From a virus: a DNA stretch of 64,000 nucleotides. The stretch is from the IMG/VR virus record IMGVR_UViG_3300032893_000010, positions 52,131 through 116,130 of that record. One strand, given 5' to 3'. The position numbers and the translations under genes were made by a program. A model generated the notes under the pieces. The model did not search any database. It was not told the DNA's origin and saw nothing but the letters and a program-made list of their open reading frames with translations. Positions 3,051 to 53,751 of this stretch are shown in pieces; within the stretch, counting starts at the first letter, position 1, and each line of letters begins with the position of its first letter.

Positions 3051-4038
3051 CGGTAGGAGAAGAGTTACAAAGACTGATGGCCGGTTAGCTGATTATTCGT
3101 CTCTGAGAACTGCTACGGGGATAGTAATCCCTGAAGTGCGGAGAGTACTACTGGACAGGGCAAGAAGAGACGATGAGATAACCAGGCACAGGAACAACAT
3201 CATATATCCTTCTGAGATGGCTAAGAATGACTGGTGCCCGAGAGCTACATATCACAGGATGACATCTGGTCACATGCCAGCTTCTAAATCATCGTTCACT
3301 TTAGAGAACGTGTTCAGTGAAGGTAACAGGATTCACGATAAATGGCAGTCGTGGATGGCTGAGACTGGAAAGCTCTGGGGCGACTGGAGATGCTCCAGAT
3401 GCTCTGAGTATGTATCGAATAGCGTTAAGCCTGGATCGTACTTCTCTGGTTCCTGCGTAGGAACAGGATGGGTGAAACTAGAAACTATAGGTGGCACTTC
3501 ATACGGGGTTTCTAAAGATCTGACTACTGATTTTTCTCATGACTGGAGATACAGGGAAGTTACGCTGAAGTCAGCATCTCTTCCGGTATCAGGCCACGCT
3601 GATGGTGCTCTCACGGAATATAATATTCTGGTTGAGCTTAAATCTCTCGGCGCTGGAGGTTTGAGGTTTGAAGCTCCTAATATGATAAAGCAGCACACCC
3701 ATGAGTCAAAGACCACATCTAAAAGCATACTCGACATTGACGGGCTCTGGAAAGATTTCCATCGTCCGCTGTCCGGCCATATCCGCCAGGGAAATATTTA
3801 CTTGTGGATGTGCCAGGAGAACAGACTGCCCTTTGACAGGATCTCATTCGTGTACGAATTCAAGGCTAACCAGCAGGCGAAAGAGTTTGTGGTTCCGTAC
3901 TCATATAGCATTGTCGAGCCTTTACTGGAAACTGCTGAGAATATCGTAGACTGCATAGCTAAGGGAACACCGCCTGACTGCTATTCGGGTAAGGGTGGCT
4001 GCTCTCAGTGCAGAGCATTCGAGAAAAAGGAGGAATGA
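3025..4038 (+). CDS. Cas4-like PD-(D/E)XK exonuclease
   Basis: PSEM..WCPR, GHADG..VELKS, QGNIY, C-terminal CSQC. Confidence 0.8.
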   Translation: MRKRTTKTDGRRRVTKTDGRLADYSSLRTATGIVIPEVRRVLLDRARRDDEITRHRNNIIYPSEMAKNDWCPRATYHRMTSGHMPASKSSFTLENVFSEGNRIHDKWQSWMAETGKLWGDWRCSRCSEYVSNSVKPGSYFSGSCVGTGWVKLETIGGTSYGVSKDLTTDFSHDWRYREVTLKSASLPVSGHADGALTEYNILVELKSLGAGGLRFEAPNMIKQHTHESKTTSKSILDIDGLWKDFHRPLSGHIRQGNIYLWMCQENRLPFDRISFVYEFKANQQAKEFVVPYSYSIVEPLLETAENIVDCIAKGTPPDCYSGKGGCSQCRAFEKKEE

Positions 4039-4748: not shown

Positions 4749-5015
4749 ATGGAAGAAACGCTATTAAAGGTCAAGGGCTCAAGCTCAGCACCTTCTCTAG
4801 CCAGCGTAATAGCACACGGAGTATACGAGAACAAGAAGCTGTGTCTTCGTGCCATAGGAGCATCAGCAGTTAATCAGGCAATGAAAGCAGTTGCCATAGC
4901 TCAATCATATGTTGGAGCTAAGGGAATGAGATTGCTTGTCATACCTGGTTTCACTGATGTTGAAATGGATGACGCTACTGTCACAGCTCTTGTATTCAGG
5001 ATAAGAACGGAATAG
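4749..5015 (+). CDS. spoVS: SpoVS family (Alba-fold) protein
   Basis: LKVKGSS..LAS.IA..RAIGASAVNQAMKAVAIA. Confidence 0.85.
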   Translation: MEETLLKVKGSSSAPSLASVIAHGVYENKKLCLRAIGASAVNQAMKAVAIAQSYVGAKGMRLLVIPGFTDVEMDDATVTALVFRIRTE

Positions 5016-11566: not shown

Positions 11567-12070
11567 GTGGCGGTATCGTCGGTAGTCATTACCGTGGAAG
11601 GGGTATTGAAGAAGCATGTTGCTGACGCCCCTATCCCAGTCGGCATAGCTTTATATCACGGACTGGCTAATACTTTCAATGTGCTGCTAGCTGCTGATAT
11701 GGAAAAGAAAGAACTTGACAGATGGTGTGCTCTGGAGGGATTGAACAAGCACGCCGCAGTTGAGCATAATGAGGGAATAATAAAGAGCTTTGATCCTGAT
11801 TTCAGAAGGTTACAGCAGGTCAAGAATCTCAGGCAGCGAGGGTATAGCATAGATCTTGTTATAGAGCCGAATCCTTCTATAGTGGTTAAGCTGCTGGAGC
11901 ATGGTTTCAGTTGCATGACGTATACGCATGCAAGCTATTCCATGCCTCAGTGGCGCCCTGACTATCAGCATAAGATCAGGCCGTGGGATGACATTCTGGA
12001 CTACGAGATAAAAATGGCTGAGCTGAGGGCTATAGAAGAGATTTCCAAGGAGGACAAGGATAATCGATGA
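11567..12070 (+). CDS. HAD-like fold protein (degenerate)
   Basis: N-terminal VVITVEGVL resembles HAD motif I without the Asp. Confidence 0.45.
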   Translation: MAVSSVVITVEGVLKKHVADAPIPVGIALYHGLANTFNVLLAADMEKKELDRWCALEGLNKHAAVEHNEGIIKSFDPDFRRLQQVKNLRQRGYSIDLVIEPNPSIVVKLLEHGFSCMTYTHASYSMPQWRPDYQHKIRPWDDILDYEIKMAELRAIEEISKEDKDNR

Positions 12071-13527
12071 AGCTCTATTTCAGCGGGGCAGAGATACCAG
12101 CATGGAAGAAACTGCTGGAAAATCAGAAGATTCCGTGTGTGTCTCTGTCCTACCTTGGTCTTAGCAGGAGAACTAAGCAATCTCTCAAGGGAATGTTCTC
12201 TGCCCAGGAAGTATTCCTGGATTCTGGAGGATACAGCTATAACAAAGGAGAAGAGAAGTATGCTTTCGAGGATGCCCTTGAGTTTGCGGCACAATACATG
12301 GATTTCGTTAAAGAGAATATCGATTCCGTGTCTCTTGTATCTGAGTTTGATGCTGTTCAGCTTGGCGATGACTTTATCCAGAAGTTCAGGGAAGATTTTT
12401 ATTCTCGGCTACCACCTGAGAAGTTCATGCCAGTGTGGCATGAACGGGATGGAAGAGAAGCTCTGGAAGCGCTTTGCTCATCTTATTCCGTAGTAGGGGT
12501 AAGCCAGAATGATATTCACGGTAATCTGGATGATGTTCCTCTTCTTAATTCATTCTCAAGAAGATACGGGACAAGACTTCATGGTGTTGGTATCACATCC
12601 ATGAGGCTTATGGAGGCAGTAAAATGGGATTCGGTCTCTTCTACATCGTGGCTTACACCGTCTAAGTACGGAGATACTTTCGTATGGGATAAACGTAAGC
12701 TGCACAGATATCCTAGAGATTACAAGAATAAGAGGAAGCAGCACAGAAGCTTGTTCATGGACAACGGCTTTGACTATGAGAAGATAGAAAATGACGACTC
12801 ACAGGAATTGTTAAGGTTATCTTTGTGGTCGTGGCAGAACTACGTCAACCATATTTCAGGAGTTACTACTCAAGTGAGGAACGAACCAGCGGAGTCTGAG
12901 GAAATGCTTTCAGGTGAAGTTGATATCCAGCAAGAATCAACAGGAAAAGAAGTTCTGGTATCTAGGGCTCATCAGCCTATTCCTGTCATGTCTACTATGT
13001 GGAAAGAGGAGACGAATCTTGAAGATGACGCTGTAACTGCGATACCTCATCTCATAGTACGATCGGAATCTATGAGGGTGTGCGACAACTGTTTCATAAG
13101 AGATAAGTGTCCTGGAGCGCAGGAGAATTCAACTTGCCTTTATAACATCCCAGTAGAGGTGAAAACCAAGGATCAGCTAAGATCTTTGCATGATGCACTC
13201 ATAGAAATACAATCTCAGAGGGTTCTTTTCATGAAAATGGCTGAAGATATGAGCGGAGGGTACGCAGATCCTAACCTATCGTCAGAAATTGACAGGCTTA
13301 ACCGGATGATAAAGACTAAGATAGAGGGAGATAAGTCTACATTCGCAATGACTGTGACTGCATCGGAATCGTCATCAGGACCAGGGATATTTGATAAGAT
13401 GTTCGGCCCAGCAGCAGGGGAGAAGCTTCGTCAGCTTGATACACCTCAAGATCCTGACTGTATTATCGCTGAGGTTCTTGACGAGAAAACTGATTATTCA
13501 CCTGTCCCTCCAAGAAGAGGGGAGTAA
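12067..13527 (+). CDS. TGT/DpdA-like TIM-barrel protein with C-terminal Cys cluster
   Basis: FLDSGGYS, PVWH, RLHGVG, DSVSSTSW; CDNC..C..C. Confidence 0.5.
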   Translation: MKLYFSGAEIPAWKKLLENQKIPCVSLSYLGLSRRTKQSLKGMFSAQEVFLDSGGYSYNKGEEKYAFEDALEFAAQYMDFVKENIDSVSLVSEFDAVQLGDDFIQKFREDFYSRLPPEKFMPVWHERDGREALEALCSSYSVVGVSQNDIHGNLDDVPLLNSFSRRYGTRLHGVGITSMRLMEAVKWDSVSSTSWLTPSKYGDTFVWDKRKLHRYPRDYKNKRKQHRSLFMDNGFDYEKIENDDSQELLRLSLWSWQNYVNHISGVTTQVRNEPAESEEMLSGEVDIQQESTGKEVLVSRAHQPIPVMSTMWKEETNLEDDAVTAIPHLIVRSESMRVCDNCFIRDKCPGAQENSTCLYNIPVEVKTKDQLRSLHDALIEIQSQRVLFMKMAEDMSGGYADPNLSSEIDRLNRMIKTKIEGDKSTFAMTVTASESSSGPGIFDKMFGPAAGEKLRQLDTPQDPDCIIAEVLDEKTDYSPVPPRRGE

Positions 13528-16942: not shown

Positions 16943-17332
16943 ATGTCTTCTGTCATGGATCAGATAGGTGAACTACTAGATCAGTTCTATCTGGCCAAAA
17001 GCCGGACTAAGAACAGGTTCACTGACCGGGAGAGAAAGAACCTTCTCTCTAAACTGGAGCCCCTCATCATCGAAGCAACATCAGCAGCGGAGATGGAAGA
17101 GGAGGAACAAGAGCCACAGTGGATAGCGGTGGACAAGGCAAGAGAAATGGAGATTCAGGGAGACACGCGAGATTCTGTAGTCTCAGCATGGGCAGAGTCC
17201 CTGGAGCTAGAGAAAGACAAGATCATCTCAACTCAGGTGGGAAATGCGTACTTCTACGCATACCCATCTACGGACGAGCAAACAGATCTCTGGGTTGCTC
17301 GTATCGAGCACAGAGAAGAAATCGCAGCTTAA
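16943..17332 (+). CDS. hypothetical protein
   Basis: AAGGAG RBS before ATG 16943. Confidence 0.6.
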   Translation: MSSVMDQIGELLDQFYLAKSRTKNRFTDRERKNLLSKLEPLIIEATSAAEMEEEEQEPQWIAVDKAREMEIQGDTRDSVVSAWAESLELEKDKIISTQVGNAYFYAYPSTDEQTDLWVARIEHREEIAA

Positions 17333-44059: not shown

Positions 44060-44530
44060 GTGGTTAAGTATATTTTCGTAGACGTTGATGGGGTAGTAAA
44101 TCCTGTTGTCTTAAGAGAAGGAGGGGAGAAATTGTTGGCCCTTCCACATGGAACGGACACACAAGGCTACTACCTGCGCTTACATAAAGATTACGGCAGG
44201 TGGCTAAAGCAGCTATCAGAAGATACTGAATCTTTCCTGGTATGGGGTTCAACCTGGCAAATACATGCTAACAGATGGGTGGGAGAATATCTTGAGTTAC
44301 CTCATTTGTCACATCTTGACCTTTCTCAGGGAAGGTTTTCTGAGTCTTTAGGTTCTATTAAGGCTGATGCTGCTAATAAATATGCGGATGGCAACAGGTT
44401 CGTCTTCTTTGATGATGAGCCTGATCTAGGTAGCCGCCTGGCTGATAATGGCTTGCATATCCGTATAGATTACAGGTCAGGACTAGAGGAATATCATATA
44501 GAAGAGGCAAGAAACTACCTGCTTTCATGA
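44060..44530 (+). CDS. HAD-domain phosphatase (RNA-repair-associated type)
   Basis: FVDVDGVVN, VWGSTW, FFDD. Confidence 0.78.
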   Translation: MVKYIFVDVDGVVNPVVLREGGEKLLALPHGTDTQGYYLRLHKDYGRWLKQLSEDTESFLVWGSTWQIHANRWVGEYLELPHLSHLDLSQGRFSESLGSIKADAANKYADGNRFVFFDDEPDLGSRLADNGLHIRIDYRSGLEEYHIEEARNYLLS

Positions 44531-48108: not shown

Positions 48109-49188
48109 ATGGCTTTATATAGTCTTGAGCAAGAGCCTCAGAACCATGTTACGTTCGTTTTTGATGAATCGTACAGCATGTATCCCCATTCTGTGGCTCT
48201 TGTCAAGCTTTTTGACAACGAAGTTCGCTATCTGGCTAAGAGAAGCCTGGAAATGAACCAGGAAACTCGTGTTTCCGTGTATCTTTTCAGCAATCCTGGC
48301 ACTGCTAGATGCGTTTTGTACGACTCTGACGTGCTCAGAGCGCAAGAATCCTTCACTTTGAAGGGAAAATACAGCCCTGAGGGCAATACAGCCCTGTGTG
48401 ATGCTGCTGTTCTTGCTGTCGAAGACCTGAAAATGGTTCCTACTAAGTACGGACAGCACTCCCACTGGCTTATGATCTTTACTGATGGCATAGAGAACAG
48501 CAGTTCTTTCAATAACAGGCGGAAAATCAAGACTTTGATTCCGTCTCTGACCGATGAGTGGACTGTTTCTATCTTCGTCCCAGATCAGATTGCTAAGAAG
48601 CAGGTTACCGACTGGGGTTTCCCCAAAGATAATGTAGCTATCTGGGATACGACCTCTGAAAGAGGCATGGATGAGGTTGTAAACACAGTACGTAAGGCTT
48701 CTGAATCGTATTTCACGCTGAGGTCTACCGGCGCTAAGGGCTCTAAGAGCCTATTCTCACTGAATTCTCTCACCCGAGCTCAGATCAGGAGTGAGCTTAA
48801 GCCTCTCCCGTATGGTTATTACCAGATTTTGCAGCATCCTAAGGATGTGAAGACGACTATCTGGATCAGGGACCTGGTTAATAACAAGCTTCCCCTGACA
48901 TATAAGAGAGGGTATGGCTACTATGAACTGGTAAAGAATGAGCATATCAAGGGTCATAAGGGTGTTATCATCGAGCAGGGCGGACAGTTCTATGCTGGTA
49001 ACGCAAGGGATCTTCTAGGGCTGCCGGATGATGAGGTAAAGGTCGGCCCAGATCACTCCACGGAGTATAAGATCTTCGTGCAGAGTGATAGCCACAACAG
49101 GAATATCATTCCTGGCCAGCGTGTCTTGTACCTGACAGGTAATGGGTTGACTCACTGGCCGCAATTTCCGCTGAAAATTTCTGAATAA
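48109..49188 (+). CDS. vWA-domain protein
   Basis: MIDAS DESYSM, GNTALCDA, FTDGIENSS. Confidence 0.82.
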   Translation: MALYSLEQEPQNHVTFVFDESYSMYPHSVALVKLFDNEVRYLAKRSLEMNQETRVSVYLFSNPGTARCVLYDSDVLRAQESFTLKGKYSPEGNTALCDAAVLAVEDLKMVPTKYGQHSHWLMIFTDGIENSSSFNNRRKIKTLIPSLTDEWTVSIFVPDQIAKKQVTDWGFPKDNVAIWDTTSERGMDEVVNTVRKASESYFTLRSTGAKGSKSLFSLNSLTRAQIRSELKPLPYGYYQILQHPKDVKTTIWIRDLVNNKLPLTYKRGYGYYELVKNEHIKGHKGVIIEQGGQFYAGNARDLLGLPDDEVKVGPDHSTEYKIFVQSDSHNRNIIPGQRVLYLTGNGLTHWPQFPLKISE

Positions 49189-49193
49189 AATCC

Positions 49194-49222
49194 TTGACAT
49201 CATGTCCCGAACGTGGTATCAT
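49194..49222 (+). promoter_or_regulatory. promoter for the tRNA/Y RNA/Ro60 operon
   Basis: TTGACA-N17-TATCAT with upstream AAATTTCTGAAT. Confidence 0.7.
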
Positions 49223-49286: not shown

Positions 49287-49358
49287 GGCCCTATCGTCTA
49301 GTGGATAGGACAAGAGACTTTCAATCTCTAAAGCGGAGTTCAATTCTCCGTAGGGCTA
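49287..49358 (+). tRNA. tRNA-Glu(TTC)
   Basis: cloverleaf. Confidence 0.9.
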
Positions 49359-49363
49359 CTATG

Positions 49364-49451
49364 TCCAGGTGTGAAGAATACGGTTGCTTCAAACAAACAG
49401 TTAGAAAAACTGTTAAGTTACCAGGACACCGTATTCGATTGATTCTCTGGG
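49364..49451 (+). ncRNA. Y-RNA-like 1 (stem-loop cargo)
   Basis: CCAGGTG..GAATACGGT/ACCGTATTC..GATTCTCTGG. Confidence 0.7.
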
Positions 49452-49497
49452 TCTAGCTAGTGGTCTACCCACCCATATCATATCTAACTATCAAGTT

Positions 49498-49857
49498 ATG
49501 ATATACTTAGATATGGCAAAAAGCAAGGAAGCTCAATCTAAAGCGTCTCGTAAACATTACGAGAACAACCGTCAGGCAATGATAGCTCGTGCAATGAAGT
49601 TTAAAGACGAGTTAAAGAAAAGCATAAGACAGTACATACAAGATCTGAAATCCTCAACACCTTGCAAGGACTGTGAGGTTCAGTATCCATATTATGTTAT
49701 GCATTTCGACCATTTACCTGAGTTTGAAAAAAAGTTTGATATTGGGAACTCTTCTAAGTGGACAAGCATGAAGAAGGTTCTTGATGAGATGGAAAAATGT
49801 GAGATAGTTTGCGCTAACTGTCACGCAGAAAGAACACATCGACGCGCGGTGGTGTAA
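49498..49857 (+). CDS. HNH endonuclease
   Basis: CKDC, FDH, CEIVCANCH. Confidence 0.88.
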   Translation: MIYLDMAKSKEAQSKASRKHYENNRQAMIARAMKFKDELKKSIRQYIQDLKSSTPCKDCEVQYPYYVMHFDHLPEFEKKFDIGNSSKWTSMKKVLDEMEKCEIVCANCHAERTHRRAVV

Positions 49858-49914
49858 AGGGAACACGCTGGTCTCATAAGCCAGATAATGCCAGTTCGAG
49901 TCTGGTCTGCGCTA
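49843..49914 (+). tRNA. tRNA-Met(CAT), 1:72 mismatch (initiator-like)
   Basis: cloverleaf; overlaps the HNH stop. Confidence 0.85.
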
Positions 49915-49950
49915 CGAACTAGGATTGATTTATCTAGGATAAAGTTTAAT

Positions 49951-50074
49951 GCCAGGTGCATTGAGTACAGATACTTCATTAGCAGAGCCAATATTTGCTA
50001 TAGCTCAAGATAAGAGCGCCGACTTCATACGTCGGAGGTTATGACATTTCTCTGTTCTCGCCCGATTCTCTGGC
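49951..50074 (+). ncRNA. Y-RNA-like 2 (tRNA-CAT opened at T loop)
   Basis: scaffold plus TAGCAGA-GCCA-ATA-TTTGCTA, D arm, CCGAC-TTCATAC-GTCGG. Confidence 0.75.
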
Positions 50075-50314
50075 GCTAATTTTAACTTAGGAGGAAGAAA
50101 GTGTACGTAACAGGTAAAGAACTTATATCTGAACTTCAGAGATTACCTGAAGAAGCCCAGAATCTGGCAGTTTACTTCAAGTGCAGAGAGAATAATCTTG
50201 AGGGAATGCTGGAAGTGTTTGATTTGAAAGTCGTTCCTGCTGGATACGGGCAGGTTATTCTTCTTCTTCCTGCTTAATTAAGTTTGTCCATACTGTACCT
50301 CCTTCCGTATGGAT

Positions 50315-50468
50315 ATCCCTGGTGTGCTTGTCCAGAGTTACTTCAATAATGGTAAAACATACATTTGAAACATGTAAATTGTTAGTTCGAATCTAACCAC
50401 GGGCACCAGATCATGCCCGTGAAGTTTATAACTTTGAAAAACACCTCTGACCGTTTATTCTCAGGGAT
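50315..50468 (+). ncRNA. Y-RNA-like 3 (tRNA-GAA opened at D loop)
   Basis: scaffold plus TACAT-TTGAAAC-ATGTA, T arm, CACGGGC-ACCA..GCCCGTG. Confidence 0.75.
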
Positions 50469-50529
50469 TGTCATTTTATTTGTTTTACCTCTGCGCCGAA
50501 CATCTTTGAATGCTCAGGGCAGAGTTCAT

Positions 50530-50601
50530 GGGCCTGTGGCTGAATGGCTTAGGCAGATGATTGCAACCCATCTTTATCCGGTTCAAATCCGGCATGGCCC
50601 T
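50530..50601 (+). tRNA. tRNA-Cys(GCA)
   Basis: cloverleaf, U73. Confidence 0.85.
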
Positions 50602-50605
50602 CTGT

Positions 50606-50748
50606 AAATCCAGGTGCAATTGCGAGAGTTACTTCATACAAATGATCAAATCGGAAAAGATAATTCTCTGTAAAAGAATAAATTGCAGGTTCAAGTCCTG
50701 CTTTGTATAGCAAAGCTAATAAACTCTTGCTTCCTATTCTCTGGATTT
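50606..50748 (+). ncRNA. Y-RNA-like 4 (linear tRNA-GTA embedded)
   Basis: scaffold around a cloverleaf at 50636-50709. Confidence 0.75.
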
Positions 50749-50763
50749 TCTGAAATTTAACAT

Positions 50764-50897
50764 AGCCTGGTGCGAGGACTTCAGCTACTTCACTTTTTAA
50801 TCTGCGTGCGATGGTTCGAATCCATTCCCCATGGCGGGTAGCTCAGCGGAAGAGCAGCAGAATACGGTAAAAGCTGGTGTCAGTTAACCCTCAGGCT
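50764..50897 (+). ncRNA. Y-RNA-like 5 (YrlA-type topology)
   Basis: T arm, closed acceptor, D arm, TCTGC/GCAGA stem. Confidence 0.8.
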
Positions 50898-50910
50898 GCG
50901 ACAAAACTTA

Positions 50911-51072
50911 ATAGCCAGGTGCAAAGAGACTCGGTTACTTCTAAATATGACATGCGGAGTCCGAGGGCAGGTTCGATTCCTGAAGCCCGACCAATCAACG
51001 GGTGGTAGCTCACAGTGGGAGAGCGCGAAAAAAATACGAAATTACACCGCGTTTCGAATATTCTCTGGCTAT
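50911..51072 (+). ncRNA. Y-RNA-like 6 (YrlA-type topology)
   Basis: CAGG-TTCGATT-CCTG, GCCCG-ACCA..CGGGT, D arm GCTC/GAGC. Confidence 0.78.
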
Positions 51073-51090
51073 TTCATCATGGGAGGTCAA

Positions 51091-51201
51091 ATGGCAGCTA
51101 AACTATGCGGGTGTACTTGTCCCTCATGCCAGGAGATTAACTTCTTCGGCAGAGGCAGTCACTGCGGCAGCAAGAAATGCACGAGTACTATGGAAAAATA
51201 A
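51091..51201 (+). CDS. 36-aa Cys-rich peptide
   Basis: GGAGG RBS; CGCTCPSC..HC..C. Confidence 0.5.
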   Translation: MAAKLCGCTCPSCQEINFFGRGSHCGSKKCTSTMEK

Positions 51202-51210
51202 TTTAATATT

Positions 51211-51309
51211 ACCTGGTGCGAAAGAAACAGTTACTTCATGGTTCGATCCCACGTATTTCTGTTAGAAATAGCTAAAGGCAGCTAACACTGTTTCACATTA
51301 TTCTCAGGT
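51211..51309 (+). ncRNA. Y-RNA-like 7 (minimal T/acceptor/D module)
   Basis: TGG-TTCGATC-CCA, TATTTCT/AGAAATA, TAGCT/AGCTA. Confidence 0.72.
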
Positions 51310-51325
51310 TCAGTACGTATTACCC

Positions 51326-51420
51326 AATGCCCAGGTGCGTTGACAACGGTTACTTCAGCAATTGTCTATCAAACAATAGTAGCTAAAAATTATGCCGTTG
51401 TCTCTGATTCTCTGGGCATT
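51326..51420 (+). ncRNA. Y-RNA-like 8 (lone anticodon stem-loop)
   Basis: GACAACGGT/GCCGTTGTC, ATTGT-CTATCAA-ACAAT. Confidence 0.72.
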
Positions 51421-51461
51421 TTTTATTCTCTATCCAGATATAGGTGCAGTAGGAGGCACAA

Positions 51462-53141
51462 ATGGCACGACAGAACACAGTACGTCTGACTTCAAGGACA
51501 ACTCCCCTGAAGTCAGAGTACTCATCAACAGCTAGAACAGCTACAGGTGGCCAGGGTTTCGTTTCTGATTCTAACTCTGAGCTGTTCAGGCTCGGAGTAA
51601 ACGGCTTGTTAGGTAAGGAAGAAACTTACCATGAAAGCGGTAAGTCCAGGGACAGCAGGTTCACTGATCTTGTTTCTGAGCTTGCTGTAAATGATCCTGG
51701 CTGGACAGCAGGATTTCTTACATGGCTTCGTGGTCCGGAGGCTAATATCAGGACAGCATCTCTTATTGGTGCTGCTGATTATGTGCATGCAAGACTAGCT
51801 GCTGGTGTTAAGGAATCCGGTAAGTCTAAGGGTTTCAACAGGACAGTAGTCGATGGTGTATGCCAGAGAGCTGATGAGCCTGGTGAACTTGCAAGCATTT
51901 ATCTTTCTGAATACGGTAAGCTTCCTAAGCCAGTGAAGAGAGGTCTGGGGGATGCTGCTTCTAGGCTGTGGAATCCTTATGCCACGATGAAGTACGATAC
52001 TGCTTCTCATGGCCTGAGGTTTGCTGATGTTATGAACCTTTCCCATTTCACGCTTGCTGACAATGAACTAGCAGCTCATATTATCAACCGCAGGTACGGT
52101 AATGATGAGGATTGGGCTTCTCTTCCTGAGATGGTGAAGAACAATATTTCCCTGAGGAAGGAAGTTGCCAAGGGCAACTACGACATTCTGACCAATTCCA
52201 GGGTTCTCAAGTCTGCTGGCATGACATGGGAAGACGCTTTGTCTCTTGCCGGAAATCATGTTCCTAAGGACAAGCTGTGGAACGCTCTTATCCTTGGCGG
52301 TCAGGTTCCTATCTTCGCTGCACTGAGAAACCTCAGGAATTTCACTGAGGCTGGGATCTCTCAGCAGGCCAAGGAATATATTCATGATCAGCTAACTAAT
52401 GAAATAATAATCGCTAAGTCGAGAATCTTGCCATTCAGATTCCTGTCAGCGCTTGAGGCTCAGGATTCATATGAGTGGTACAGTGACCTTGAGACCGCTG
52501 TTCAGATTGCCACTAGGAACGTTCCAAGGCTTGAAGGCAAGACTATCGTCCTTGTTGATACTTCAGGTTCAATGGATTCTCCGGTGAGCAATAAGTCCAA
52601 GATGACACGTTCTGGTCTTGCTGCTTTCTTCGGCGGCGCTTTTGCGGCGCATAACTCAGATGATGTAGCTTTGTACATTTATGCTGACGGTGTTAAGAGA
52701 ATTCCTGTGAAGAAGGGACATTCTGTGCTGAAGCTGGCTGAGGAAATGCATCGCAGGACTGGTGAGGTCGGGCATGGTACTCAGACAGGAAGGGCCATGA
52801 GGCAGGCTTGTTCTGAGAATCCGGATGCTAAGAGGCTTATCGACAATACTGACATGCAGTCTTTTGCTCATGGTTCAAGAGCACATGTTTTAAGTTACAG
52901 CGGCTTTGGTTTCAGTTCATACAACAGTAATGGTTATTCAAGGCAAGGTACTGCTGCTGACGTTCCTGATAGTGTGTTCTTGTATTCTAACGACCTGTCA
53001 GGATATAAGACAGCTAACGTCCAGACTGGTGATGGTTCCCGTACTCATCAGCTATCAGGTATGATGGGTGATTCTACTTACAAGTGGATGAAGGCTATCG
53101 AAGCTGGCACGAATGCTGACTGGCCATGGCTGAAGAAGTAA
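51462..53141 (+). CDS. Ro60/TROVE-domain RNA-binding protein (Rsr homolog)
   Basis: QRADEPGE, KYD, MTWE, ALRNLRNF, SRILPFRF, vWA VDTSGSM. Confidence 0.9.
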   Translation: MARQNTVRLTSRTTPLKSEYSSTARTATGGQGFVSDSNSELFRLGVNGLLGKEETYHESGKSRDSRFTDLVSELAVNDPGWTAGFLTWLRGPEANIRTASLIGAADYVHARLAAGVKESGKSKGFNRTVVDGVCQRADEPGELASIYLSEYGKLPKPVKRGLGDAASRLWNPYATMKYDTASHGLRFADVMNLSHFTLADNELAAHIINRRYGNDEDWASLPEMVKNNISLRKEVAKGNYDILTNSRVLKSAGMTWEDALSLAGNHVPKDKLWNALILGGQVPIFAALRNLRNFTEAGISQQAKEYIHDQLTNEIIIAKSRILPFRFLSALEAQDSYEWYSDLETAVQIATRNVPRLEGKTIVLVDTSGSMDSPVSNKSKMTRSGLAAFFGGAFAAHNSDDVALYIYADGVKRIPVKKGHSVLKLAEEMHRRTGEVGHGTQTGRAMRQACSENPDAKRLIDNTDMQSFAHGSRAHVLSYSGFGFSSYNSNGYSRQGTAADVPDSVFLYSNDLSGYKTANVQTGDGSRTHQLSGMMGDSTYKWMKAIEAGTNADWPWLKK

Positions 53142-53751
53142 AATACAGAGAGGGTGACGAAATCCAGGTCACCCTCTCTGGCATTGTCAAGACAGTAGAC
53201 CCTAACGGTTTCCCTCTGAGGGTAGTTGTCGGCAGTCCAGTTGGCCATAGTTATAATAATGTGAGTTTCTCTCTTGAAAGAACCATGAATCCTGAGATTA
53301 AGCTCATTAAGAGAGCCATAAAGACTGGCGTGATGTACTATGATCCTTGGGATAATACAACATGGTGGAAAATAGATGATATCAGTTGCACCTGGTATAG
53401 TATACGCCCAGGTATGTGTCCTTTTCCTGTATCAGAAAAAGATATCCTTCCTGAAAGATTCGCAAGATTTAAGGAAATGATACCTGAGGAATAGCGAGGT
53501 AATATATGCTGGAAATTCTTTCGGTAATTGTATTGACAGTATCCTCCGCCTGTGGTATCATCTTCATGTTCGTCAAGTCAAGACAGCCTAAGATCACATA
53601 TCTTTCAGCAGAAGCTCTGGATATAAAACATAAAGAAATTGAAAGCATAAGACTTGATTCTATATCAAGAGCTTATACTCAGGAAGATGTAGACAGGGCT
53701 AATGCTCAATGTGATGAGCTGTATAAGCTATATAAAATAAGGAGGAAATAA

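What the first reader, a model, noticed from the sequence alone, without database searches (positions are those of the whole stretch)
49364..53141. Ro60 gene preceded by eight Y-RNA-like genes: one conserved scaffold, eight different tRNA-derived cargoes
Seen: eight elements start at 49364, 49951, 50315, 50606, 50764, 50911, 51211 and 51326, between a TTGACA promoter (49194) and the TROVE/Ro60 gene. They share CC(A/T)GGTGY, an 8-10 bp stem, T(A/G)CTTC, a variable module, the complementary strand and usually (G/T)ATTCTC(T/A)GG. The outer helix covaries: CCAGG pairs with CTCTGG in copies 1, 2, 4, 6 and 8, and CCTGG pairs with CTCAGG in copies 3, 5 and 7. The inner stems differ in sequence but mostly stay paired. 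Known: Ro60/Rsr binds the terminal helix of Y RNAs, and bacterial YrlA RNAs carry a tRNA-like module, usually as one or two RNAs per locus. Inference: a modular RNP system in which one phage Ro60 displays a panel of tRNA mimics, for example as decoys for host anticodon nucleases or toxins, or as adaptors recruiting tRNA-handling enzymes.
Basis: partly seen in the sequence, partly recalled or inferred. Interest (0 to 1): 0.96.

Follow-up and report, generated by a model that had tools for sequence, protein, structure and literature searches.

The report
Phage Ro60 with eight Y RNAs
An uncultured 116-kb phage carries, just in front of its Ro60 gene, eight small-RNA genes that share the Ro60-binding handle of bacterial Y RNAs but each display a different tRNA look-alike, a larger and more varied set than I found described for any Ro60 system.

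Summary
Eight elements (49363-51417, + strand) share one handle: a 7-bp outer helix, GGUG(C/U), an 8-10-bp inner helix, U(A/G)CUUC, and AUUCUC(U/A)GG at the 3' end (AACCCUCAGG in copy 5). They lie between a promoter-like site and a true Ro60 gene (TROVE + vWA; the predicted fold matches solved Ro60 rings).

The handle is not special to this phage. A covariance model built from it finds 221 copies beside Ro60 in 80 viral contigs and 188 copies beside rsr in 80 actinobacterial genomes. Every copy is on the Ro60 strand and the helices covary strongly. These are therefore Y RNAs of the actinobacterial type.

What is unusual is the number and the cargo. Bacterial loci have 2-4 copies and cultured actinophages 1-2, against 8 here and 6-10 in four relatives. 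The handle joins a tRNA body at the T loop (copy 2), the D loop (3), the acceptor ends (4) or the anticodon loop (5 and 6, the known YrlA wiring). Copy 7 is a mini-YrlA and copies 1 and 8 are short hairpins. Order and wiring are kept in relatives whose Ro60 is 44-70% identical.

The function (adaptor panel or decoys) is untested, and no RNA data exist. This scan has noted similar arrays with other handles in other phages. I found no paper describing them.

The parts
49194..49222 (+). sigma-70-like promoter candidate for the tRNA / Y RNA / Ro60 operon
   Evidence: TTGACA-17-TATCAT with TG before the -10, 11 of 12 matches. A consensus match only; the region as a whole has no excess of such sites.
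49287..49359 (+). tRNA-Glu(UUC); its 3' end lies 3 nt before copy 1
   Evidence: ARAGORN and Rfam, 60.5 bits.
49363..49452 (+). Y RNA copy 1: handle plus a short hairpin cargo (YrlB-like short class)
   Evidence: Model R1 47.7 bits, E 2.8e-9. It was one of the 46 sequences used to build the model. No tRNA call after re-joining.
49498..49857 (+). HNH endonuclease ORF inserted in the array (probably a mobile gene)
   Evidence: PHROG HNH endonuclease, E 3.7e-23. tblastn found no homologue in the 80 IMG/VR viral loci, including relatives L002-L004. L172 (70% Ro60 identity) has only 25 nt between its second short RNA and tRNA-Met where this ORF lies in the window.
49843..49915 (+). tRNA-Met(CAU)
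49950..50075 (+). Y RNA copy 2: the handle replaces the T loop of a tRNA body. The acceptor stem is closed by a loop holding GCCA; the D arm and a CAU anticodon arm are intact.
   Evidence: R1 31.2 bits, E 2.6e-5; not in the training set. ARAGORN draws a tRNA-Met cloverleaf once the module is re-joined with a T loop; 0 of 30 shuffles do so. Four orthologues keep the arms, with 11 of 23 pairs compensated.
50101..50277 (+). 58-aa ORF with a strong ribosome-binding site, lying between copies 2 and 3
   Evidence: A similar ORF sits at the same place in L172, judged by eye. No Pfam or PHROG match.
50316..50467 (+). Y RNA copy 3: the handle is inserted in the D loop of a complete tRNA-Phe(GAA)-like body. 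The acceptor stem is closed by a loop starting ACCA.
   Evidence: R1 31.4 bits, E 2.3e-5. ARAGORN calls tRNA-Phe in 429 re-joined variants, with the junction at about tRNA nt 9. Rfam tRNA partial match, model positions 8-63, 24.4 bits. Orthologues show 11 of 24 pairs compensated.
50530..50602 (+). tRNA-Cys(GCA); its 3' end lies 5 nt before copy 4
   Evidence: 33.9 bits. The same tRNA precedes the copy-4 orthologue in L003 and L172.
50608..50746 (+). Y RNA copy 4: the handle encloses an unpermuted cloverleaf (50636-50709, anticodon GUA, short variable loop, 30% G+C)
   Evidence: Rfam tRNA 63.4 bits. The 5' half of the handle is found by R1. Outer helix 7/7 paired. Orthologues in L003 and L172 show 10 of 28 pairs compensated.
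50764..50897 (+). Y RNA copy 5: YrlA wiring (T arm, closed acceptor hairpin, D arm; the handle takes the place of the anticodon loop). Its 3' motif is divergent (AACCCUCAGG).
   Evidence: Rfam YrlA 23.6 bits, E 0.09, full model length but below the gathering score of 69. ARAGORN places the junction at the anticodon loop. R1 missed it; it was found by motif and 7/7 helix pairing.
50913..51070 (+). Y RNA copy 6: YrlA wiring, with ACCA in the loop that closes the acceptor stem
   Evidence: ARAGORN places the junction at the anticodon loop. Orthologues exist in L003 and L172.
51092..51201 (+). 36-aa Cys-rich ORF between copies 6 and 7
   Evidence: Seen in the sequence. No family match. It may not be a gene.
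51210..51310 (+). Y RNA copy 7: a miniature YrlA-like cargo (3-bp T arm with UUCGAUC loop, a hairpin, a short D-like arm)
   Evidence: R1 38.7 bits, E 4.2e-7; not in the training set. Read by eye. ARAGORN does not call it.
51329..51417 (+). Y RNA copy 8: short class, with a 5-bp stem and a 7-nt loop CUAUCAA
   Evidence: R1 44.8 bits; it was in the training set. Fold -30.2 kcal/mol.
51462..53141 (+). Ro60 / Rsr orthologue (TROVE HEAT-repeat ring plus vWA domain with a MIDAS DxSxS motif)
   Evidence: Pfam TROVE 63.6 bits and VWA_2. D366, S368 and S370 are invariant in 27 homologues. AlphaFold model pLDDT 85; Foldseek 9KOP E 2.6e-15, 1YVP TM 0.71-0.76, 2NVO.
48109..49188 (+). 359-aa stand-alone vWA protein just upstream; a possible accessory component
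   Evidence: PHROG 26613, E 8.7e-76. MIDAS motif intact. Homologues were found only in five other loci, all array-rich: L002, L003, L004, L014 and L036. The fold is a generic vWA plus a beta-rich C-terminal part. Its link to the system is by association only.

Best explanation
The eight elements are genes for Y RNAs, the small RNAs that partner with Ro60.

**Handle.** The paired 5' and 3' ends of each RNA form the handle that the phage's own Ro60 ring binds. It consists of the outer helix, the GGUG(C/U) / AUUCUC internal loop, the inner helix and an invariant UACUUC.

**Transcription and processing.** The RNAs are probably made as one transcript together with three tRNAs and the Ro60 mRNA. They would then be cut out by the host's tRNA-processing enzymes; two copies start 3-5 nt after a tRNA 3' end.

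**Cargo.** Each RNA holds out a different module from the ring.
- Five are tRNA bodies joined to the handle at a different exit of the cloverleaf: the T loop, the D loop, the acceptor ends, and the anticodon loop (twice).
- One is a miniature of the anticodon-loop type.
- Two are short hairpins.

**Function.** My best reading is an adaptor panel. As in the known Ro60-Y RNA-PNPase machine, the module decides which protein or RNA the Ro60 ring is brought to. The phage would have multiplied the modules so that its Ro60 can dock on several host tRNA-handling proteins or nucleases during infection, in a genome that also invests in 28 conventional tRNA genes.

**Shown and inferred.** Shown here: the handle, its link to Ro60, its covariation, the wiring of the modules and their conservation. 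Inferred: Ro60 binding, processing and the adaptor role.
For: **The handle is a conserved structured RNA tied to Ro60.**
- In 46 short members, 86% of cells are paired against 68.6% in shuffles. No shuffle out of 500 reaches any of the five measures, and slid controls give at most 50%.
- Model R1 finds 221 hits in 80 viral loci plus the window. All are on the Ro60 strand and nearly all lie within 2 kb upstream.
- R1 finds 188 hits in 80 actinobacterial rsr loci, all on the same strand within about 700 nt upstream.
- There are no other hits in the 116-kb genome.

**The handle resembles known Ro60-binding sequence.** Its consensus 5' strand, GGUGCGAAG, differs by one base from the GGUCCGA that X. 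laevis Ro60 contacts. It resembles the GNCGAAN0-1G motif of YrlA (PMC4201824).

**The protein is a real Ro60**.

**The modules are tRNA-like.**
- ARAGORN calls on re-joined modules give 39-429 calls per module; 0 of 30 shuffles give any.
- Rfam tRNA scores 63.4 bits in copy 4.
- Rfam YrlA matches copy 5 over its full length. It matches relatives at E down to 2.7e-5.

**Wiring types and their order are kept in relatives.** This holds in L172, L002, L003 and L004 (Ro60 70%, 45%, 45% and 44% identical), with compensatory changes in the arms.

**Precedents.**
- D. radiodurans makes Yrn2-tRNA-Asp-Yrn1 as one precursor, and M. smegmatis YrlA is cut by RNase P (PMC4201824).
- Thermus phage phiLo Ro60 binds two phage Y-like RNAs and host PNPase (PMC12135203).
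Against: - There is no expression, processing or binding evidence. The only public run that holds the sequence is the source DNA metagenome.
- None of the eight reaches Rfam's YrlA gathering score.
- The exact CGAA of the published motif is present only in copy 7.
- Nothing in the data identifies any partner protein. The phage lacks RtcB, Rnl-type RNA ligase and a CCA-adding enzyme, so no RNA-repair partner is encoded nearby, apart from a HAD domain of the RNA-repair 'Swiss Army Knife' type about 5 kb upstream.
- The variety of wirings would also fit a model in which the tRNA fold is only a stable cap.
Confidence: 0.6

Rival explanations
1. Decoy panel. The Ro60-bound RNAs are stable tRNA look-alikes that soak up or misdirect host enzymes that attack tRNAs as a defence against phage (anticodon nucleases and similar). 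This would protect the phage's and the host's real tRNAs.
For: - Copies 2, 3 and 4 expose intact 7-nt anticodon loops (CAU, GAA, GUA).
- The phage carries 28 conventional tRNA genes (29 ARAGORN calls, one of which is the tRNA-like insert of copy 4), a sign of conflict over tRNA supply.
- A Ro60-like protein of phage Bas63 was reported to counter the Ppl defence system (PMC11482910).
- Some modules encode NCCA in the acceptor loop, whereas 0 of 29 real tRNA genes encode CCA.
Against: - Anticodons are not kept between orthologous copies. The T-loop type has CAU, CAU, CAU, CAA and, in L003, a tetraloop. The D-loop type has GAA, GAA, GUA and AUC. The nested type has GUA, CUA and UUA.
- Four of the eight copies have no anticodon loop at all.
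- The same handle with 2-4 RNAs sits beside rsr in 80 bacterial chromosomes, where a counter-defence role is not expected.
- No PADLOC family matches the neighbouring proteins.
Confidence: 0.18
2. Stable caps. The tRNA fold only protects the Y RNA from exonucleases (one of the two ideas in Chen et al. 2014). The different wirings are by-products of recombination between Y RNA genes and the surrounding tRNA genes, and each has no role of its own.
For: - The array lies inside a tRNA island.
- Any wiring seems tolerated, and short copies (1, 8) do without a tRNA body.
- The hypothesis is stated in PMC4201824.
Against: - Each wiring type and its place in the array is kept in relatives whose Ro60 is only 44-70% identical, with compensatory changes.
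- The D-arm sequence UAGCUCA...GAGC is invariant in all five T-loop-type orthologues.
- The modules are no closer to the phage's own tRNA-Met, -Phe or -Tyr than unrelated tRNAs are to one another (about 0.6 identity, the background level), so they are not recent recombinants.
Confidence: 0.14
3. tRNA precursors. Some copies, above all copy 4, are unusual precursors from which working tRNAs are released. The handle would then be a processing or stabilising signal rather than a lasting Ro60 partner.
For: - The copy 4 insert scores 63.4 bits as a tRNA, higher than many real tRNAs of the phage.
- M. smegmatis YrlA is cut by RNase P and receives CCA (PMC4201824).
- Orthologues of copy 4 carry CUA and UUA anticodons, like suppressor tRNAs.
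Against: - Permuted copies would need re-joining, and the phage has no RtcB or Rnl ligase.
- The copy 4 insert has 30% G+C and a short variable loop, unlike bacterial tRNA-Tyr.
- Normal tRNA-Tyr, -Phe and -Met genes are present.
- The window's ORFs read normally under table 11.
Confidence: 0.06
4. The repeats are not RNA genes tied to Ro60. They would be dispersed repeats, terminators or processing stems of the tRNA operon.
For: None beyond their position among tRNA genes.
Against: - All 409 model hits in 160 independent loci are on the Ro60 strand and next to the gene.
- Covariation is strong.
- No copies lie elsewhere in the genome.
Confidence: 0.02

Closest known systems
Bacterial and phage YrlA / YrlB Y RNAs with Rsr (Ro60): S. 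Typhimurium, M. smegmatis, mycobacteriophages (Chen et al. 2014, PMC4201824; YrlA crystal structure 6CU1, bioRxiv 10.1101/312249; Rfam RF02553)
   Same: - The genes lie next to Ro60 on the same strand.
- The paired ends carry a G-rich 5' motif (GGUGCGAAG here, against GNCGAAN0-1G).
- A second, variable module is present.
- Copies 5 and 6, and copy 7 in miniature, have the YrlA order of T arm, closed acceptor hairpin and D arm, with the handle in place of the anticodon loop.
- Short hairpin-type partners (YrlB-like) accompany them.
   Different: - There are eight genes, against the one or two RNAs characterised per bacterial species.
- Three further wirings occur: the handle at the T loop, at the D loop and at the acceptor ends. 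A variable-loop wiring occurs in relatives L002 and L003.
- None reaches the Rfam YrlA threshold.
- An invariant UACUUC and a conserved 3' strand are not part of the published description.
Thermus phage phiLo Ro60 with Yrl1 and Yrl2 (PMC12135203; PDB 9KOP, 9L5Y)
   Same: - A phage-encoded Ro60 with phage-encoded Y-like RNAs upstream of the gene.
- It is the best sequence and fold match in the PDB.
- It shows that a phage Ro60-Y RNP can engage host PNPase.
   Different: - It has two RNAs with a plain stem-bulge-stem shape and no reported tRNA-like cargo.
- The proteins share only about 20% identity.
D. radiodurans Rsr with Yrn1 / Yrn2 and PNPase (the RYPER machine)
   Same: - Several Y RNAs are made with a tRNA in one precursor.
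- The Y RNA tethers Ro60 to an effector.
- Yrn1 has T- and D-like arms in a different order from YrlA, so more than one wiring was already suspected across species.
   Different: The different wirings there lie in different organisms, not side by side in one operon. No nested or T/D-loop insertions have been described.
Circularly permuted tRNA genes (the red alga Cyanidioschyzon merolae and some other algae; from my own knowledge, not checked here)
   Same: The 3' half of a tRNA is encoded before the 5' half, with the acceptor ends joined by a short linker.
   Different: Those are matured into normal tRNAs through a circular intermediate. Here the break point is occupied by a long conserved Ro60-type handle, and no ligase is encoded.
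Handle-tagged tRNA-mimic arrays next to Ro60-like genes noted earlier in this scan in other phages (notes e1-272486, e1-5935525, e1-5922176, e1-5369457, e1-5645188)
   Same: Arrays of 4-7 small RNAs share one handle, carry differently wired tRNA look-alikes and lie beside a Ro60-like gene.
   Different: Those handles (for example a helix plus ACAGCAA) and proteins are far from canonical TROVE Ro60. Here the handle is the same one found beside rsr in actinobacterial chromosomes, and the protein is a plain TROVE + vWA Ro60. This locus therefore ties such arrays directly to classical Y RNAs. These are unpublished AI notes that I did not check.

Membership tests
Ro60 / Rsr protein | TROVE (HEAT-repeat) domain | tested here: met
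   Pfam PF05731, 63.6 bits against a cut-off of 23.
Ro60 / Rsr protein | C-terminal vWA domain with a MIDAS motif | tested here: met
   PF13519, 29.7 bits against a cut-off of 27. DxSxS (D366, S368, S370) is invariant in 27 homologues.
Ro60 / Rsr protein | Whole-chain fold like solved Ro60 rings | tested here: met
   Model pLDDT 85, pTM 0.83. Foldseek 9KOP E 2.6e-15; 1YVP and 9NF8 TM 0.71-0.76; 2NVO E 5.6e-11.
Ro60 / Rsr protein | Binds Y RNA and misfolded RNA | not testable with these tools
   Needs biochemistry.
Bacterial Y RNA (sensu Chen et al. 2014) | Encoded within 4 kb of the Ro60 gene on the same strand | tested here: met
   All eight lie 45-2100 nt upstream on the + strand.
Bacterial Y RNA (sensu Chen et al. 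2014) | 5' and 3' ends pair into a stem | tested here: met
   55 of 56 outer-helix positions pair in the window. The family alignment shows covariation, with 0 of 500 shuffles reaching it.
Bacterial Y RNA (sensu Chen et al. 2014) | GNCGAAN0-1G motif near the 5' end (the Ro60 contact, related to metazoan GGUCCGA) | tested here: inconclusive
   The consensus of 46 relatives is GGUGCGAAG. This is one base from GGUCCGA and one position off the published pattern. In the window only copy 7 has CGAA; the others read GGUG(C/U)(G/A)NNNG.
Bacterial Y RNA (sensu Chen et al. 2014) | Bound and stabilised by Ro60 in vivo | not testable with these tools
   No RNA run holds the sequence.
YrlA (Rfam RF02553) | Score at or above the gathering threshold (69 bits) | tested here: not met
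   The best score is copy 5 at 23.6 bits, E 0.09. Relatives reach 28-40 bits.
YrlA (Rfam RF02553) | Module order T arm, closed acceptor-like hairpin, D arm, joined to the handle through the anticodon-stem equivalent | tested here: met
   Met for copies 5 and 6: the cmscan alignment covers the full model and ARAGORN places the junction at the anticodon loop. Copy 7 fits by eye only. Not met for copies 1-4 and 8.
tRNA (RF00005), for the insert of copy 4 only | Cloverleaf scoring above the gathering threshold | tested here: met
   63.4 bits against 29. Whether it is ever released or charged was not tested. It is enclosed by the handle.
Circularly permuted tRNA genes | The 3' half precedes the 5' half, and re-joining restores a cloverleaf | tested here: met
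   Copies 2, 3, 5 and 6.
Circularly permuted tRNA genes | Matured into a working linear tRNA | not tested
   No ligase gene is present in the phage, which makes this unlikely.

The most novel reading that the evidence does not exclude
This phage clade uses Ro60 as a universal chassis that shows the host every face of a tRNA. The handle takes the place, in turn, of each exit of the cloverleaf: the acceptor end, D loop, anticodon loop, T loop and, in relatives, the variable arm. The resulting RNPs would intercept several different tRNA-directed host factors at once, defence nucleases included. The copies with a 7-bp acceptor stem and an encoded NCCA (2 and 3) would be opened by RNase P into two-piece RNAs with a real, possibly chargeable, 3' end.
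Probability: 0.15. Interest if true: 0.88.

Novelty: new variant of a known kind. Interest (0 to 1): 0.72.

Why it matters
What the tRNA-like half of bacterial Y RNAs binds has been an open question since 2014.

A natural set of eight RNAs with one handle, in which the tRNA body is attached through a different arm each time, works like a ready-made mutational series. Whichever partners are pulled down by some wirings and not by others will show which face of the tRNA shape matters.

The locus also shows three further things:
- The Rfam YrlA model misses most Y RNAs of actinobacteria and their phages.
- Loci with 2-4 Y RNAs are normal in actinobacteria.
- Some phages have expanded the system to 6-10 RNAs. 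This suggests that Ro60 particles play a larger part in phage infection than the few published cases indicate.

In GenBank records of cultured actinophages these RNAs are unannotated or covered by 'hypothetical protein' ORFs.

Tried and rejected
- **Nucleotide and single-protein searches.** A megablast of the locus against phages found nothing. A single-protein scan of viral contigs also found nothing.
- **Rfam.** At gathering thresholds it gives only tRNAs in the window and in 12 related loci.
- **Sequencing runs.** No RNA holder is listed; the only run is the source wetland DNA metagenome. I therefore did not use read laying.
- **Tie to the validated M. smegmatis and mycobacteriophage Y RNAs.** I tried to compare the handle with them directly. 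The supplements of Chen 2014 are not held, two review papers are not held, and no Mycobacterium phage appeared among the listed tblastn hits. The link rests on position, motif and sub-threshold YrlA matches.
- **Orthologue assignment by identity.** A pairwise-identity matrix was too noisy to assign orthologues. I used wiring type and gene order instead.
- **Bulk wiring classification.** My classification of wiring in all 165 motif-defined elements is crude. Several 'unpermuted' and 'D-loop' calls in high-G+C loci are probably YrlA-type. I rely on it only for the low-G+C clade, and where Rfam tRNA agrees (window, L003, L036).
- **Repair and defence genes.** Searches for RtcB, Rnl-type ligase and CCA-adding enzyme in the genome were negative. 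PADLOC found nothing for five neighbouring proteins.
- **The stand-alone vWA protein** gave only generic vWA fold matches.

Full report
**What is there.** The window is the last 64 kb of a 116,130-bp IMG/VR virus record rated complete by CheckV. The sequence comes from a wetland metagenome. ARAGORN tRNAs in the window, one of which is the insert of copy 4. The window also holds a large terminase and a helicase.

Each has the same parts in the same order:
- a 7-nt 5' strand ending in GG;
- UG(C/U);
- a variable 8-10-nt strand;
- U(A/G)CUUC;
- a cargo of 25-110 nt;
- the complement of the variable strand;
- (G/U)AUUC, or AACC in copy 5;
- UC plus the complement of the 5' strand.

The two motifs are far more frequent than chance: 10 against 0.69 expected, and 8 against 2.1 expected. 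In the outer helix 55 of 56 positions pair. Only 3 of 40,320 re-pairings of the strands do as well. The inner helices differ in sequence but pair with their own partners.

**The handle is a family-wide, Ro60-linked RNA structure.**
- A simple search for the 5' motif hit the region just upstream of Ro60 in about 60 of 80 viral contigs fetched with a Ro60 profile.
- An alignment of 46 short members gave an outer helix, a 2-bp step and an inner helix. In these, 86% of cells pair against 68.6% in shuffles, and no shuffle out of 500 reaches any of the five measures. Slid controls give at most 50%.
- The covariance model R1 built from that alignment finds five of the eight window copies full-length. 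Three of those five were not in the training set. It finds two more in part and nothing else convincing in the window or in the whole genome.
- R1 gives 221 hits in the viral loci and the window, and 188 hits in 80 actinobacterial chromosomal rsr loci. Every hit is on the Ro60 strand and next to the gene.
- The consensus 5' strand GGUGCGAAG is one base from the GGUCCGA contacted by frog Ro60. It is close to the GNCGAAN0-1G motif of YrlA and YrlB (PMC4201824).
- In relatives L002 and L004 the closing G·U of the outer helix becomes A-U. This supports that pair.

**The protein.** ORF 51462-53141 has TROVE and vWA domains with an intact MIDAS motif. Its best PDB sequence match is the Ro60 of Thermus phage phiLo. 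The predicted structure (pLDDT 85) aligns over its whole length with frog, human, Deinococcus and phiLo Ro60. Its nearest cellular relatives are all Actinomycetota, at 36-40% identity. Its nearest cultured-phage relatives are Streptomyces and Gordonia phages, at 30-37%.

**The cargoes.** I cut out each module, re-joined its ends (with or without a short loop) and ran ARAGORN.

| Copy | Result after re-joining | Position of the handle |
|---|---|---|
| 2 | tRNA-Met(CAU) cloverleaf | replaces the T loop |
| 3 | tRNA-Phe(GAA) | D loop |
| 4 | already a cloverleaf (GUA), Rfam tRNA 63.4 bits | encloses it at the acceptor ends |
| 5, 6 | tRNA whose 'anticodon' is simply the junction | anticodon loop (the YrlA wiring) |
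| 1, 7, 8 | no call | not applicable |

None of 30 dinucleotide shuffles of any module gave a call. Rfam's YrlA model aligns copy 5 end to end, but at 23.6 bits against a threshold of 69. It reaches 28-40 bits on the matching modules of relatives.

Copy 7 reads by eye as a shrunken T arm, hairpin and D-like arm. Copies 1 and 8 belong to the short, YrlB-like class that forms one of the usual two RNAs in most loci.

Copies 2, 3 and 6 have GCCA or ACCA directly after the acceptor 3' strand, inside the closing loop. None of the 29 ordinary tRNA genes encodes CCA. The modules are no more similar to the phage's own tRNA-Met, -Phe or -Tyr than unrelated tRNAs are to each other.

**Conservation.** Four relatives were compared.

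| Locus | Ro60 identity | Contig | Handle RNAs |
|---|---|---|---|
| L172 | 70% | 5.9 kb | 8 |
| L002 | 45% | 115.6 kb | 9 |
| L003 | 45% | 116.6 kb | 10 |
| L004 | 44% | 55.3 kb | 6 |

- The order is largely shared: tRNA, short copies, tRNA, T-loop type, D-loop type, tRNA-Cys, nested type, YrlA types, small types, Ro60.
- Alignments of orthologues keep the arms, with compensated pairs in 11 of 23, 11 of 24, 10 of 28 and 9 of 33 predicted pairs.
- L002 and L003 also hold a fifth wiring absent from the window, with the handle at the variable-loop position of a complete four-arm body.
- Anticodons are not kept: CAU, CAU, CAU, CAA and a tetraloop; GAA, GAA, GUA and AUC; GUA, CUA and UUA.

Elsewhere the usual number is 2-4. 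Other arrays of 5-8 occur in a few high-G+C viral contigs: L081, L036, L074, L006, L069 and L042. Cultured actinophages checked (Satis, Rabbitrun, LuckySocke) have 1-2 hits. These are unannotated or overlapped by 'hypothetical protein' ORFs.

**Context and expression.**
- A strong promoter-like site lies at 49194.
- tRNA-Glu ends 3 nt before copy 1, and tRNA-Cys ends 5 nt before copy 4. tRNA 3' processing would therefore set those 5' ends, as in the Deinococcus Yrn2-tRNA-Yrn1 precursor.
- An HNH gene interrupts the array. tblastn found it in none of the 80 IMG/VR loci, including L002-L004. L172 has no room for it at that position.
- A 359-aa vWA protein just upstream recurs only in five other loci, all array-rich.
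- The phage encodes no RtcB, Rnl ligase or CCA-adding enzyme.
- No RNA data exist.

**How it most likely works.** Shown here: a conserved handle tied to Ro60, and modular tRNA-derived cargoes that are conserved.

Inferred: Ro60 binds the handle; the RNAs are cut from one precursor; each module directs the ring to a different partner. By analogy, Y RNA tethers Rsr to PNPase in Deinococcus, and phiLo Ro60-Yrl binds host PNPase.

I put about 0.9 on 'these are Ro60-partner Y RNAs' and about 0.4 on the adaptor-panel role. The combined statement gets 0.6.

Two rivals stay open, along with a small chance that copy 4 yields a working tRNA:
- The decoy reading is weakened by the drifting anticodons and by the presence of the same system in bacterial chromosomes.
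- The plain stable-cap reading is weakened by the conservation of each wiring.

**Comparison and novelty.** Ro60 with Y RNAs in phages, and YrlA as a circularly permuted tRNA mimic, are both published. I could not find the following in five full-text searches:
- an operon of eight such RNAs, or 6-10 in relatives;
- the T-loop, D-loop, acceptor-end and variable-loop wirings;
- the invariant UACUUC and the conserved 3' strand of this handle.

Earlier notes of this scan report similar arrays with other handles next to more distant Ro60-like genes in other phages. This locus links that pattern to the classical TROVE Ro60 and to the actinobacterial Y RNA handle. I class it as a new variant of a known kind.

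Noticed in passing
window 48109-49188: A 359-aa stand-alone vWA protein with an intact MIDAS motif (PHROG 26613) lies directly upstream of the array. Among 80 viral loci its homologues occur only in L002, L003, L004, L014 and L036, which hold 4-10 handle RNAs each. It may be a further component. The fold search gave only generic vWA matches.
   Followed up: partly
window 50636-50709; L172 2814-2887; L003 4161-4227: The nested tRNA-like inserts of the three orthologous copy-4 elements have anticodons GUA, CUA and UUA. Only position 34 (and position 38) of the loop differs. The last two would read stop codons if the RNAs were ever used in translation.
   Followed up: partly
window 51350-51366; L002 about 4860-4880; L003 about 3950-3970: The 7-nt loop CUAUCAA recurs in otherwise different cargoes: copy 8 here, the last short copy of L002, and the 'anticodon' loop of the D-loop-type copy of L003.
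   Followed up: no
window, all 29 tRNA genes against 49990-49993, 50407-50410, 50992-50995: None of the 29 tRNA genes encodes a 3' CCA. Copies 2, 3 and 6 carry GCCA or ACCA right after the acceptor 3' strand, inside the closing loop. Some orthologues keep it (L172: GCCA in both), others do not.
   Followed up: partly
L002 4680-4810; L003 4720-4845: A fifth wiring is absent from the window. It has a T arm, a closed acceptor hairpin (with GCCA or ACCA), a D arm and an anticodon arm in that order, so the handle sits where a long variable arm would be.
   Followed up: partly
window 49498-49857: An HNH endonuclease gene sits between copy 1 and tRNA-Met and overlaps the start of the tRNA by 15 nt. 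tblastn found no homologue in the 80 IMG/VR loci, including L002-L004. L172 has no room for it at that position.
   Followed up: partly
window 44060-44530: An ORF with a HAD domain of the 'Swiss Army Knife' RNA-repair type (PF18143, E 3.2e-8) lies in the tRNA island about 5 kb upstream of the array.
   Followed up: no
window 53533-53561: A second promoter-like site with the same hexamers and spacing as the one at 49194 (TTGACA-17-TG-TATCAT) lies downstream of Ro60.
   Followed up: no
window 12067-13527: A 486-aa queuine tRNA-ribosyltransferase-like gene (PHROG 887, E 1.6e-76). It could act on tRNA or, as in some phages, on DNA.
   Followed up: no
L170 (Gordonia phage Rabbitrun NC_060133) 3604-3676 and 3895-3973; L169 (Streptomyces phage Satis) 3524-3595: In published actinophage records the handle RNAs upstream of the 'Ro-like RNA binding protein' are unannotated. 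In Rabbitrun they lie under small 'hypothetical protein' ORFs (gp93, gp94).
   Followed up: partly
window 50941-50960 and orthologues (alignment A10, columns 26-29 with 46-49): In the copy-6 type the CUUC of the invariant UACUUC can pair with a conserved GGAG in all three orthologues. This hints that the motif is not always single-stranded.
   Followed up: no
window 17231-17295: A weak lone hit of the handle model (15.8 bits, E 0.13) lies far from the array. It is probably chance.
   Followed up: no
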